Assembly: GCA_964016885.1 (NCBI GenBank)
Contig: OZ024741.1
Span: 219,666,001 to 219,730,000, forward strand
DNA length: 64,000 nt
Origin: Eledone cirrhosa
Lineage: Eukaryota
Direction: 5' to 3'
The notes below the pieces were generated by a model. The model had not been told where the DNA came from, did no database searches, and saw only the letters and a list, made by a program, of their open reading frames with translations. The position numbers and the translations under genes are program-made. This document shows, piece by piece, positions 1,481 to 53,066 of the stretch; the stretch's first letter is position 1, and each line of letters starts with the position of its first letter.

Positions 1481-2034
1481 TATATATATATATATATATA
1501 TATATATATATATATATATATATATATATATATATATATATATATATATATATATATATATATATATATATATATATATATATATATATATATATATTGC
1601 ATGTGTGTGTCCATGTATGTATGCATGAATGAATACAGTAAGCTAGACAACCAGTGATTCTAACTGTTACCACTATCATATATTTTGGTTTTGTTTTGTT
1701 TTGGAATTGTTTGACCAAATGCTTTACTTACTGTTTTAATTATTTTTAAAAATCGATTAACACACACACACATATATATATATATATATATATATATATA
1801 TATATATATATATATATATTTCGTTTCTGAATTTGTTTAGCAAGATTCTTTATCTGAAATCGTGTGTTGAAACCGATATTGTTATACTTTGGGAGGGTCA
1901 TGTTGCCAATAAGAAACACACGCACCAGTTGCTTTCACTTCAATTTAATTTATTAAATATTTATAAATTTACAAATTTATAAATTTCTGGTTGGTTGGTT
2001 GGTTCCACAACCAGATAGTTGTTTATATATATAT

Positions 2035-2079
2035 AGTCATAGTTCTTTCGTCACACACTCTGTGACCTCTTCAGTGACT
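2035..2079 (-). ncRNA. Type I hammerhead ribozyme, family A
   Basis: Minus strand: AGUCA-CUGAAGA-G-GUCAC(agagugu)GUGAC-GAAA-GAAC-UA-UGACU. Confidence 0.8.
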
Positions 2080-2222
2080 GGGGATTTCTTTCTTCGTTTC
2101 TGTGCCTTTCCTTTCTTCTATCCTACGCCATTTTGTTTGTGTGTCACAAACAAAATGACACACAAACAAAATGGCGTAGGATAGAAGAAAGGAAAGGCAC
2201 AGAAACGAAGAAAGAAATCCCC

Positions 2223-2267
2223 AGTCACTGAAGAGGTCACAGAGTGTGTGACGAAAGAACTATGACT
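2223..2267 (+). ncRNA. Type I hammerhead ribozyme, family A
   Basis: agtca ctgaaga g gtcac agagtgt gtgac gaaa gaac ta tgact: stems I and II intact, minimal stem III. Confidence 0.8.
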
Positions 2268-3285
2268 ATATATATATAAACAACTATCTGGTTGTGGAAC
2301 GAACCAACCAGCCAGAAATTTATAAATTTGTAAATTTATAAATATTTAATAAATTAAATTGAAGTGAAAGCAACTGGTGCGTGTGTTTCTTATTGGCAAC
2401 ATGACCCTCCCAAAGTATAACAATATATATATATATATATATATATATATATATATATATATATATATATATATATATATATAACAGGAGGCTGGACTGG
2501 TGTAAATCCTTGAAAGGTTTATTATACTATGATCATTTCAATGACCAGGTTCCATATGAATCCGGTGATATCATCAGGTATTGGAATATAACAAAGGAAT
2601 ATGTAAAAAACCATGGGTCCGAAAAATCAGAGACAGAGAGGACCACTGACCAACTAGCTTCTCGGCCAATCGCCCTCAAAGTGGTGGCAACTGAATATAC
2701 TAATGAACATCTGTGGAGGGGCGAAGGCTTATAATGCACTACCACCACTCCGTCAAAGAAGAAGGGGAAGAAAGAAAGAAAGGGAGAAAGAAGTGTAGTG
2801 TAAAGGGTCATACAACATTCATGCTAGAAAATGCCGCGAAAAAATGCGACACCAAAGAATCTATAATGGGTGTCTGTATGGTCTAATGTGTGAACCGAAG
2901 ATTGGAACGTTAAACTTATGTTGCGAGTTATAGGATGAAATTAAATTAAATTAAAAATATTAAATTGCAAAATGATAAACTGAAAAATAAGTTATTAGAG
3001 AATTAAAGATTAAGGTGACGAGATTTATTTATTTAATGAACTTACGGAGAGAGTCTTATATTCTTTAATTCTCTTTAATGAACCAACAAACCTAAAGAAA
3101 TATATATATATATATATATATATATATATATATATATATATATATATATTTAAAATCGATTTAATAAACACATCAAACAATTACAGGGGATAATTTATAA
3201 AGAGTGTAAACACACATAATTACGAAGGTAACATTTAAAATTAACGAGAAAATCGAATATAGATACCTTGTAATAATGATTAATT

Positions 3286-49133: not shown

Positions 49134-49738
49134 TATATATATATATATATATATATATATATATATATATATATATATATATATATATATATATATATAT
49201 ATATATATATATATATATATATATATATATATATATATATATATAAAGTATAAGCATATGAAGGAGTTCAACAGACACCAATTTTGCTCGTTGAAGGGAT
49301 TAATAAGAATTAATTATTCAGAGCATAATACAAATTATAGTTGGGAAAAAATAGGATACAGAAACAATTCTCTATTTACTCAGAGCGACCCTACAGCAGT
49401 TTCATTGGACTCCCTCACATGTCTATGTTAGTGTATATATGTATATATCTGCGGTATATTTGTTAATTACTCCCTTACGGTCGAGAATATGGCTGAATCT
49501 GACTGCTATATTTAGCAGCCGTTTCACTTGCCATTTTCCACATACTTCTGCCCCTCTGTAGGACGCCTATTATGTGATAATTCTCCCGTTCTAAGTTATC
49601 GCTGGTAACGGATAACTCAGCTGAATTGCTTATCGTTTGAAAATATCTCTGATGATTTCAGATTTTCATAGCCCAAAATGCTTCGAGGATTTCATTTCTG
49701 GCGGTGATCACTGTAGACATTTTAGTCCAAACTTGAGG

Positions 49739-49826
49739 AGTCTCTTGATAAGCACGAAGCCTCATGGATAATACCAGGATCGGATATATCCATAAAGAAC
49801 GAGCGAAACTGTCGACAGTCGGGACT
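49739..49826 (+). ncRNA. Hammerhead ribozyme, U3-A8 variant
   Basis: agtctc-TTGATAA-gcacg..cgagc-GAAA-ctgtcgacag-TC-gggact; palindromic stem III. Confidence 0.75.
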
Positions 49827-50191
49827 AGAGGAATTTTGGTAAAGTTTATATGCATTTTTTCTTCTAACTTATATTTTAGACGTAGCTCCCTTTAATTGAT
49901 TATTTGTCTAGTTAATTTCTACGGGTTAAAAGGAATGACTAGATAAATTTTATCTGACTGTTCTTCGCGGAAAATAGTCTGTATCATTTGTCTATTATTT
50001 CTTCATAGTTACATTTTAAACTTATAGCCTCGTTTAAATGATTATTTATATGATTAATTTCTACGGACTAGGGAGAGGAAAGACTGTATATATTTTATCT
50101 AATAGTTCTTCAAACTTGCAATTTTATATATATATATATATATATATATATATATATATATATATATATATATATATATATATATATATAT

Positions 50192-53066
50192 ATTCAGTAG
50201 TTAAGCAGAGAAGACATTAGTCGAAGAGTATCAACATTAAGTGCAGTTTAATATAAAAAAGAGAATAAAATGTCAGTTTACAATTGTTTCATACTCCATA
50301 TAATGTTTCTGGATCAATCGATAGTAATATCGTTATTGATTTGGGGCAGAGAAAGATAATTAGCATAAAATAATATTATGGAGCAGCTCCTCGGAACTTG
50401 AAATTAGATAATGAAAATATTATGTATAAAGTAGAAATAAAAATAAAATAAAATAAGAGGGTTACGTATCCGTAAATAATCGTCAGATTAGCAGACCCCT
50501 AGAGGAGCCCCTGGCACTGGAGAACTCAAGTGTATGGTATAAAGAAACATTACATATCTGTCGAGGCTGAAGGTAAAGAATGCCGCCTATCGCACAACAA
50601 GATGGCTTCTTGTAGGGAAATTACCTTATTGTACAGAGATGGGTTTCAAGGGAAGTAACTCCTTGAAGAGCTTTGATATCACAATGGGCTCTAGCGACTC
50701 TGCGCAAGTCACGGACTTAGTTGGAATCTACCTCTTACATCACATTAGTGCTGAGCTCCCAACTTTGCAAGGTAGATTATATAGGGACAACGCCCTATTT
50801 GCAGTCCACAACTGCACGAATCGCAGCATAGACTTGCTCAAACAACAACTACATAGATTCTTTAAAAATAACGGTCTATCTATTACCATCGAACCTAACC
50901 ATAGGGTAGTGAATTTCCTAGATGTCACCCTTGATCTTACTAACAATTCATATTACCCTTATCATAAACCAGGCGAGATACTTACTTATATTAGCCCCCA
51001 CTCTAACCACCCACCGGCAGTCATCAGAGCGATCATTAATTCTATCTTATATAGGATTTCCATGGTATCCGCCAATGAGGAGATATTTAATGCCCATGCA
51101 GCATATTATAATAAGGCCCTTCCTGAATCTGATTATATACAATCTATATTCTACATACCTAAAGGCCAGAACACAGAATTTCACCACAAATCCAATTACT
51201 TTAACAGTAGAACTAGAAACACATTAGCATTTAGCCAGATTTGCCGGAAATTTAGGCCCGCCAATACCTATAAAAGTAATCGTAATAGTGGCAGAGGACT
51301 ACTCCCTACTCCTAGTAGCAGATTCAGAATCAACCTTAGAATACGAAAGAATACTAGGCTGACCATTAGCAAGCACCTTGGCAATAATAACCCTATTAAT
51401 GCCCTTGCCAATTCTGCTAGACCCCACAGAAATAACAGGCCTAGAAAAATCACCTGGCTTATCTAATTTAGCTACTAACATCCCTAAACGCTTCTTCTCC
51501 GCCCTATCTAAACACCCCCCCCCAACCATAGATATTACAAACTCTTTAATAAAAACAATATTAAAATCACCTTCTCCACCACACCGATCTTAGCTAGCCA
51601 CATCGCATTTAGCAACCACCATAAACTAAAAAATATAACTCCCCCACTGCGGTACCACCACCCCCTATAAGTAAACCATGTAACCACACCAATACTCATC
51701 CTAGTAGCAGAACTCCCCCTCCAATCACATTAGTACACAGCTCAAACAACCCTGTTCCTACTAATCACAATCCTAATTGCAACTGCCCCAACCCTACTGC
51801 ATGCCCACTTAACGGGCAGTGCCTTACGCCCAATATCGTTTATAGGTGCATCGTTAGAACGGCCTCATCTACTAACTCCTATATTGGCTCTACATCTAAC
51901 CCATTTAAGATTCGCTATAACGCGCATTCATTTTCCTTCCGCGACCCTGGCCATAGATGCTCTACTTCTCTAGCTAGGCTCATTAAAAACCTTAAACTGG
52001 CCAACATTGAACACTCACTAACTTGGGCTATCTTGACTAGATCTCCAACGTTTAACGGGAGAAGAAATTGTTGTGATCTCTGTCTCACCGAGGCCTATTA
52101 CATAACTCTGTCAAGGCCACCCACCATCAATGACAGGAATGAGTTGGTCATCAACTGCCACCACCGCAGAGCGAGCACCTTCGCTAACAGAATATTCGAC
52201 CCACCTTAGATTATCATTTAATCACGCTCCTCCCTATAACTAACAAACTAAAACATATTTAGTCCGCCACATAAACACCTATAAGTTACCTCCCTTACAT
52301 TATCTTAGTCACATATCTCATTACGACTTTATCTATAAGCTACCTCCCTTTCATTATCTAAGTTATAACTCTCATTGTCGCCTTTAGCTCTTCAAGGAGT
52401 TACCTCCCTTGAAACCCATCTCTGTACAATAAGGTAATTTCCCTACAAGAAGCCATCTTGTTGCGCGATAGGCGGCATTGTTTACGTTCAGCCTCAACAT
52501 ATATGGAATTTTTCTTTATACCATACACTTGAGTTTTCCAGTGCCAAGGGACCCCCTCTAGGGACCTGCTAATCTGACGATTATTTACGGATATGTAACC
52601 CTCTTATTTTATATTATTTTTATTTCTACTTTATACATATTAATATTTTCATTATCTAATTTCAAGTTCCGAGGAGCTGCTCCATAATATTATTTTATGT
52701 GAATAATCTTTCTCTGCACCAAATCAATAACGATATTACCATCGATTGATCCAGAAACATTGTATGGAGTAGTGAAACAATTGTAAACTGACATTTTATC
52801 CTCTTTTTTTATATTAGACTGCACTTAATGTTGATACTCTTCGACTAATGTCTTCTATGTGAGCTTGTGGTCTGGATTTGCTTAACTACTCAATATTTCC
52901 AGCTCTGTACACCTAACCTCCACATGAACCCAGTTTTCCAACTGCTTTCCACTGCATACTGCACATCCAGCACCCGCTTCTAAGCTTTGGCTTCTAATAC
53001 CTTCACCAATCTCTCCTAGCCTATCAATATCTCTCTATTTAAGATTGGTTTACTGTTGAACTGTCT
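50192..53066 (+). mobile_element. Hydra-clade-like Penelope element with inverted pLTRs (50192-50672/52386-52893)
   Basis: RT FDITMGSSDSAQVTDLVG, LYRDN, NFLDVTLDL, SNHPP; endonuclease CNC..CPLNGQC, IVYRC, SYIGST, CDLCLTEA, NCHH ending about 52209; HHRs at 50275-50398 (-) and 52665-52789 (+). Confidence 0.9.

What the first reader, a model, noticed from the sequence alone, without database searches (positions are those of the whole stretch)
1820..53066. Shared arm asymmetry: one arm stops at a fixed point, the other carries an extension
Family A short ends stop at the same ...GTATAACAATAT before (TA)n (2426, 4287, 24846). The opposite ends continue about 57 nt to CAGAAACGAAA (1820, 25413, 49133, and the inverted cap at 36614-36694). 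Other families also have one-sided extensions: 22784-22873, 30536-30560, 33784-33940, 37217-37258, 39345-39501, 52894-53066. Inference: insertion uses two defined priming sites on the RNA, one per target strand (twin-priming-like); CAATAT and GAAAT are both compatible with annealing to TA repeats.
Basis: partly seen in the sequence, partly recalled or inferred. Interest (0 to 1): 0.75.

Follow-up and report, generated by a model that had tools for sequence, protein, structure and literature searches.

The report
Paired Penelope tails suggest twin priming
These are back-to-back pieces of Penelope-like jumping genes whose one-sided 'tail' is already described, but the two-armed copies checked elsewhere in the genome nearly always pair one tailed with one untailed end, which likely means that both cut DNA strands start copying the same RNA at two fixed sites.

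Summary
Family A is the 3' repeat (pLTR) of a Penelope-like retroelement (PLE) with RT, C-terminal GIY-YIG and a hammerhead motif. The extension is the known PLE 'tail', here codons ~9-28 of the element's ORF. In vitro work on another PLE maps such a tail between two RT start sites (PMC11167929).

Genome-wide, 14,086 and 12,246 of 29,075 core matches fall in the short and long class. Outward-facing termini on 36.6 Mb pair short with long in 48 of 53 cases. Five other families do the same where partners were seen, with tails of about 30-165 nt.

Both arms share subfamily variants (415 of 423 sites), either arm can be longer (15 vs 18), and all 41 junctions differ. A further 276 junctions join arms that do not overlap.

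Best model: fixed-site twin priming on one RNA, inferred and not shown. TA annealing fits family A but not every family. Many copies are single-armed. The architecture is known; I did not find the pairing rule in my searches. This scan noted the same reading before on other DNA.

The parts
1819..2426 (.). Family A two-armed insertion in (TA)n: tailed arm left, untailed arm right, about 269 nt each plus tail
1819..1875 (-). Family A tail (57 nt; ORF codons ~9-28 in intact copies)
   Evidence: (100% match to the pLTR-ORF junction of full-length copy L071)
4286..6513 (-). Family A 5'-truncated body ending at the short site; frameshifted RT (5056-6543) and GIY-YIG (4683-5105); no inverted partner
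24847..25413 (.). Family A two-armed insertion: untailed arm left, tailed arm right
25357..25413 (+). Family A tail
25153..25197 (+). Minimal type I hammerhead motif in the pLTR (CUGAAGA...GAAA, 5-bp stem I, 6-bp stem II); 7 more copies in other family A arms
   Evidence: motif search, sequence; no Rfam match
35138..36609 (-). Family A truncated body; its 3' end falls in the N gap 34938-35137
36612..36694 (+). Family A inverted cap: a few pLTR bases plus the whole tail
48475..49133 (.). Family A two-armed insertion; right arm tailed (49077-49133), left outer end replaced by another element
22782..23749 (.). Family C two-armed insertion; tail about 90 nt on the left arm (22784-22873), hammerhead-like core in both arms
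30397..30560 (.). Family D mini palindrome; extension about 30 nt on the right
33555..33940 (.). Family E two-armed insertion; tail 157 nt here, about 165 nt in most copies
37217..37598 (.). Family F two-armed insertion; tail about 45 nt on the left; arms elsewhere lead into a PLE ORF distantly like family A
39345..39949 (.). Family G two-armed insertion; tail about 160 nt on the left; elsewhere a 591-nt tandem unit without a long ORF
50194..53065 (+). Family H: untailed inverted cap left, broken RT and EN ORFs (50543-52209) with Hydra-like CxCX5C linker, tailed 3' end (about 52891-53065)

Best explanation
These insertions are likely built in one event in which the element's nuclease nicks both strands of a (TA)n target and each free DNA end primes reverse transcription on the same RNA, one at the short site and one at the long site further downstream. 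Shown: two fixed ends, their one-of-each pairing, shared variants in both arms, and a different inner junction at each insertion. Inferred: both cDNAs run towards the RNA 5' end, and the downstream one would have to displace the upstream one after copying the tail. Each stops at its own point. The two cDNA 3' ends are then joined head to head by end joining (short overlaps, blunt joins or small extra pieces), and repair fills in the opposite strands. If only one strand extends, a single-armed copy would result. Short ATAT or TA overlaps with the target may help priming at many sites but are not required.
For: Pairing: 39 of 45 outward core pairs within 10 kb and 48 of 53 terminus pairs (binomial p about 4e-10) are short-long. 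Of 48 inspected core pairs, 42 were directly short-long. Two more were short-long around an internal tandem junction and two 'short-short' pairs were neighbouring mini short-long insertions. Among 40 unpaired cores, 10 had a clear degenerate partner end, all of the opposite type, and none had a same-type partner. Other families: C 11 of 11, E 7 of 7, G 4 of 4, F 5 of 7 (2 unresolved), D 2 of 2. Same template: arms of one insertion differ by a median 1.4% against 6.9% between insertions (n=23) and agree at 415 of 423 subfamily-diagnostic sites against 58.9% across insertions. Not a single fold-back: the short-ended arm is longer in 15, the tailed arm in 18, equal in 8 of 41. 276 junctions join a ~33-nt short-ended arm to the last 14-18 nt of the tail, with no complementary stem (whole mini-insertions seen). 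Built afresh: 41 of 41 junctions differ. Literature: the anole PLE protein nicks and extends both target strands, starts at two internal RNA sites bounding the tail, and is predicted to be a dimer (PMC11167929).
Against: No biochemical test here. Frangieh et al. saw no difference in start site between top and bottom strands and did not examine pairing. Two true long-long insertions were found among 53 pairs (L049/L213, L209). 27 of 40 unpaired cores show no partner end within about 6 kb, and 3 more are doubtful, so two-armed products are only part of the output. 8 of 41 insertions are symmetric, and some junctions hold short fold-back copies, so snap-back does occur. Later central deletion of palindromes could scramble arm lengths. 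Gene conversion between arms, or one dominant source locus per cell, could mimic a shared template. The diagnostic sites were defined from arm agreement, which favours concordance somewhat. Inner junctions show 1-5 nt overlap in only 13 of 35 scored cases (6 further rows left out).
Confidence: 0.65

Rival explanations
1. Dual priming: an asymmetric protein dimer carries two RNA molecules, one primed at the short site and one at the long site; the arms look alike because both RNAs usually come from one active locus.
For: Needs no strand displacement. A dimer is predicted for the anole protein. The long-long insertion L049 has different tail variants in its two arms. 8 of 423 diagnostic sites disagree.
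Against: 98% concordance despite several coexisting subfamilies. Gives no natural reason why each RNA uses a different site.
Confidence: 0.15
2. Hairpin intermediate: self-priming (proposed on an antisense template, PMC3846280) makes a fold-back, the nuclease cuts its two strands staggered at the two sites (EN-mediated resolution, PMC8557442), and later central deletions make the arms unequal.
For: Explains one-of-each pairing and arm identity directly. 8 of 41 insertions are symmetric. Small fold-back copies occur at some junctions.
Against: Either arm can be longer, also in copies whose arms differ by under 1%. 276 junctions have arms that share no sequence, and in the mini-insertions read whole both arms are very short together. 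Full-length copies have arms of about 5 kb against 1 kb (L071). In vitro the two tail ends are RT start sites.
Confidence: 0.15
3. Whole-unit copying: a few palindromic master copies with one tail are transcribed and retrotransposed as units, so the pairing is inherited.
For: Would explain pairing and arm identity. Cannot be excluded for the ~50-nt minis, where a few junction variants recur.
Against: 41 of 41 larger insertions have different arm-length pairs (one segmental duplicate, L066, removed).
Confidence: 0.03

Closest known systems
Endonuclease-positive Penelope-like elements with an inverted 5'-truncated copy and a one-sided tail (PMC8557442 Fig. 2 legend and section 15; PMC3846280 passages and Discussion)
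   Same: Head-to-head arms, partial tandems, a tail at one end made of the first codons of the ORF, (TA)n targets with no readable target duplication, hammerhead motif in the pLTR.
   Different: Published tails are 30-40 bp and called optional. Here they are about 30, 45, 60, 90, 165, 165 and 175 nt in seven families, and pairing is close to strict in two-armed copies.
Poseidon_Ac (PAc) in vitro system, PMC11167929 (main text read)
   Same: Two internal start sites inside the ORF's 5' part bound the tail; AT-rich target; both strands extended.
   Different: Different clade. Sites here are 60 nt apart and both carry AATATCG, whereas PAc starts without homology to the target. The paper's main text proposes no pairing of the two sites in one insertion.
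L1 twin priming and dual priming (PMC2837659, passages)
   Same: Both nicked strands prime cDNA, giving inverted fragments joined internally.
   Different: L1 uses the poly(A) tail plus a variable internal site and yields two fragments with an internal deletion. Here both sites are fixed and the arms usually duplicate the same stretch.
Non-LTR retrozymes as non-autonomous PLE derivatives (bioRxiv 10.64898/2026.07.22.740005, abstract and outline only)
   Same: Family G is a 591-nt tandem unit without a long ORF that shows the same two-end pairing.
   Different: No canonical hammerhead core was found in its unit by motif search.

Membership tests
EN+ Penelope-like element (family A) | RT followed by C-terminal GIY-YIG in one ORF | tested here: met
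   919-aa frame in L071 holds RT and EN; Pfam GIY-YIG above cut-off for the window copy; RVT_1 weak, below cut-off; N-terminal part in another frame
EN+ Penelope-like element (family A) | pLTRs in partial tandem, with inverted 5'-truncated copy | tested here: met
   L071, L072, L067
EN+ Penelope-like element (family A) | Tail equals the sequence that follows the pLTR into the ORF | tested here: met
   Internal junctions in L031 and L055 read through the tail into the ORF
EN+ Penelope-like element (family A) | Hammerhead motif in the pLTR | tested here: met
   Core and stems seen directly, of the minimal kind described in PMC4209133 (passages); Rfam gave no match; cleavage not tested
Neptune/Nematis clades (family A) | CX2-5CxxC linker before EN and CCHH motif in EN | tested here: met
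   CIDKKCITC linker; two Cys inside the GIY-YIG core and two later His, read by eye against PMC8557442
Neptune/Nematis clades (family A) | Placement in an RT phylogeny with reference elements | not tested
   No reference set was fetched; Neptune versus Nematis is left open
Hydra clade (family H) | CxCX5C linker, CxxC and CxH beside the conserved E and N | tested here: met
   CNCPNPTAC, CCDLC and CHH in 51625-52209 against PMC8557442; loci of families C, D and E hold homologues at about 36-56% identity
Naiad clade (family A) | N-terminal EN, no hammerhead | tested here: not met
   EN is C-terminal and a hammerhead motif is present
L1-type twin priming | Two inverted fragments of one RNA with an internal deletion (non-overlapping), flanked by target duplications | tested here: not met
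   Arms overlap in all 41 core pairs and are non-overlapping only in the minis; target duplications cannot be read in (TA)n
Non-LTR retrozyme (family G) | Tandem non-coding unit carrying a hammerhead | tested here: inconclusive
   591-nt tandem unit, longest frame 86 aa, no canonical core by motif search

The most novel reading that the evidence does not exclude
Programmed twin priming is the normal integration route of Penelope-like elements of at least two clades. One complex holds the RNA at two fixed sites (30-175 nt apart, by family), primes one from each nicked target strand and copies the same RNA twice by strand displacement, so that inverted pLTRs, one-sided tails and ~50-nt abortive minis are all direct products of one reaction.
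Probability: 0.5. Interest if true: 0.7.

Novelty: new member of a known kind. Interest (0 to 1): 0.45.

Why it matters
How PLEs make their inverted repeats and tails is named as an open question in PMC8557442 (section 15), and PMC11167929 leaves the steps after initiation unvalidated. The one-of-each rule, the shared template and the non-overlapping minis turn this into one sharp in vitro prediction. If true, the telomerase-related RT would use a two-ended insertion route unlike R2 or L1, and tens of thousands of genomic palindromes would be its direct products.

Tried and rejected
A DNA similarity search of G000 with the arm end found nothing, because common words are skipped; patterns were used instead. 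No direct genome-wide count of pairs was obtained, so pairing rests on 36.6 Mb of contig C1 and on fetched loci. Rfam gave only hairpin and microRNA look-alikes below their gathering scores among the 150 of 250 rows shown and nothing for the hammerhead stretch. Family H has only 4 exact matches to its pattern, so its pairing rests on the window copy. The family D pattern rarely caught partner arms (2 of 24). Rejected: random endpoints; a rule that the ORF-bearing or longer arm always has or lacks the tail; a separate MITE or ribozyme class for family A (full ORF found); obligatory TA annealing (0-1 nt overlap at the long ends of F and H). RNA folding of the tail regions showed no shared structure and had no shuffle control. 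No RNA runs, homologue searches or structure predictions were made.
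Full report
Observation. The window is AT-rich DNA (34% GC) full of (TA)n tracts. A self-comparison with microsatellites masked shows many head-to-head inverted repeats between TA tracts. Only two of five family A insertions in the window show both outer ends. One is single-armed (4286-6513), one loses its partner end in an N gap, and one to a neighbouring element.

Identity. [quoted passage not shown] A full-length copy elsewhere in G000 (L071) has the textbook PLE layout: untailed 3' end, full ORF, partial tandem copy, inverted tailed cap. 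At internal tandem junctions the pLTR reads through the extension into the ORF, so the extension is codons about 9-28. Both end sites carry AATATCG, 60 nt apart. The pLTR holds a minimal hammerhead motif; Rfam does not detect it. A CX4CxxC linker and a CCHH-type pattern point to the Neptune/Nematis type; no tree was built. Family H has the Hydra-type linker, and loci of families C, D and E hold homologues of it.

Two sharp ends. The 22-nt core matches 29,075 times in G000. Of these, 14,086 go straight into TA and 12,246 into the tail. 12,665 tail ends meet (TA)n at the same base. In the inspected pairs, 38 of 46 classified long ends share one junction and most of the rest lie within about 3 nt. 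Families C, E, F and G show two end modes, plus copies that read on, in 24-30 loci each. Family D shows two close short modes and one long mode. Tail lengths are about 30 (D), 45 (F), 60 (A), 90 (C), 165 (E, G) and 175 nt (H, one copy).

Pairing. On C1 0-36.6 Mb, where both lists are complete, 39 of 45 outward core pairs within 10 kb are short-long. With termini instead of cores it is 48 of 53. Of the five exceptions, two are true long-long insertions, one has an intervening interrupted core, one is split by a TA tract, and one is two separate minis. I fetched the first 20 unpaired short and the first 20 unpaired long cores, skipping three already held or known to be paired. Ten had a clear partner end with a mutated or missing core, always of the opposite type. 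Three were doubtful, and 27 showed no partner end within about 6 kb. So pairing is near strict when two arms exist, but many copies have one arm. Other families: C 11 of 11 pairs, E 7 of 7, G 4 of 4, F 5 of 7 with 2 unresolved, D 2 of 2.

How the arms relate. In 41 short-long insertions (one segmental duplicate removed) the untailed arm is longer in 15, the tailed arm in 18, and they are equal within 10 nt in 8. Arm lengths correlate weakly (rho 0.33, p 0.04), and all 41 junctions differ. A cDNA primed at the short site cannot template the tail, so a single fold-back needs the tailed arm to be at least as long; 15 cases break that. 276 junctions join a ~33-nt untailed arm to the last 14-18 nt of the tail, with seven junction variants among the 100 listed. 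The ones read whole are ~50-nt insertions between TA tracts, and their arms share no sequence. Arms of one insertion differ by a median 1.4% against 6.9% across insertions (23 insertions with both arms long enough). They agree at 415 of 423 diagnostic sites against 58.9% (27 insertions; sites were defined from arm agreement). Inner junctions have 1-5 nt overlap in 13, are blunt in 8 and have extra bases in 14 of 35 cases. Six rows were left out because palindromic sequence or an unmapped stretch confounded them.

Annealing to TA. Overlap between element and target is 4 nt at both family A sites and 2-4 nt at the short ends of C, D, E, F and G. It is 2-3 and 6 nt at the long ends of C and G, but 0-1 nt at the long ends of F and H and 1 nt at the short end of H (read by eye). 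The read-through is unknown for the long ends of D and E. It may help but is not required, in line with homology-free initiation by the anole protein.

Mechanism. Best reading (0.65): both nicked strands prime on one RNA at two fixed sites, and the cDNAs are joined head to head. The ends, pairing, shared variants and distinct junctions are shown. Nicking, priming, strand displacement and end joining are inferred. Rivals are dual priming on two RNAs (0.15), a hairpin intermediate with staggered cutting and later deletion (0.15), and whole-unit copying (0.03).

What is known. PMC8557442 (passages and section 15) describes inverted copies, a 30-40-bp tail often at one end only, and (TA)n targeting. 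It attributes the tail to nuclease resolution and calls the mechanism open. PMC3846280 (passages and Discussion) shows a tail made of N-terminal codons on one inverted pLTR and proposes self-priming on an antisense template. PMC11167929 (main text and part of the methods) shows extension of both strands and two internal start sites that bound the tail, without proposing that they pair. PMC2837659 (passages) defines L1 twin and dual priming. PMC4209133 (passages) describes minimal hammerheads in pLTRs. The retrozyme preprint was seen as abstract and outline only. Searches for the pairing model (listings) found no paper stating it. The one paper holding all terms is a review on human elements, seen as a listing only. 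The library lacks most subscription papers, including older Penelope work. I did not read the supplements of PMC11167929 or PMC8557442, which may bear on tail lengths, clade and pairing.

Earlier scan notes give the same twin-priming reading for other DNA of this and other genomes. I had formed and tested this reading before the look-up, and the notes are not used as support.

Verdict. A real feature and a new member of a known kind. The added value is a measured pairing rule, longer tails than published, and anatomy that disfavours the published hairpin idea and yields a direct in vitro test. Interest 0.45.

Noticed in passing
window 41993-46550: A LINE-type element (RVT_1 E 2e-29) with a 771-nt inverted copy of its 3' end (99.2%), head to head between TA tracts. 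Both outer ends stop at the same base, with no tail, unlike the PLEs.
   Followed up: no
G000, 276 places; L177, L211, L212: Recurrent ~50-nt family A mini-insertions. The untailed arm stops about 33 nt upstream, where a weak 5-bp helix with the short site is predicted (no control); possibly a stall point of early elongation.
   Followed up: partly
window 39345-39949; L135-L164: Family G: 7,650 core matches, a 591-nt tandem unit without long ORF or canonical hammerhead core, inserted with the same two-end pairing.
   Followed up: partly
L071 5329-6438 (-): The family A ORF has an Asn/Thr/His-rich low-complexity stretch with a frame change before the RT, recalling the N-rich inserts described in PMC3846280.
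   Followed up: no
window 8591-8756 and 48127-48474: Another hammerhead-bearing family (core at 8649 and 48185), the second copy with an inverted arm and abutting a family A arm at 48475.
   Followed up: no
window 1-1240 (-): A further PLE-type RT frame that starts right at a TA tract, with no inverted cap.
   Followed up: no
window 47100-47254: A piece related to the family E tail standing between TA tracts without the family E core.
   Followed up: no
window 10838-13171, 55133-58567, 59496-60040: Minisatellite arrays with periods 78, 63 and 136 nt.
   Followed up: no
L049/L213, L209: Two true long-long insertions; in L049 the two tails carry different variants, a hint that two templates or two events are sometimes involved.
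   Followed up: partly
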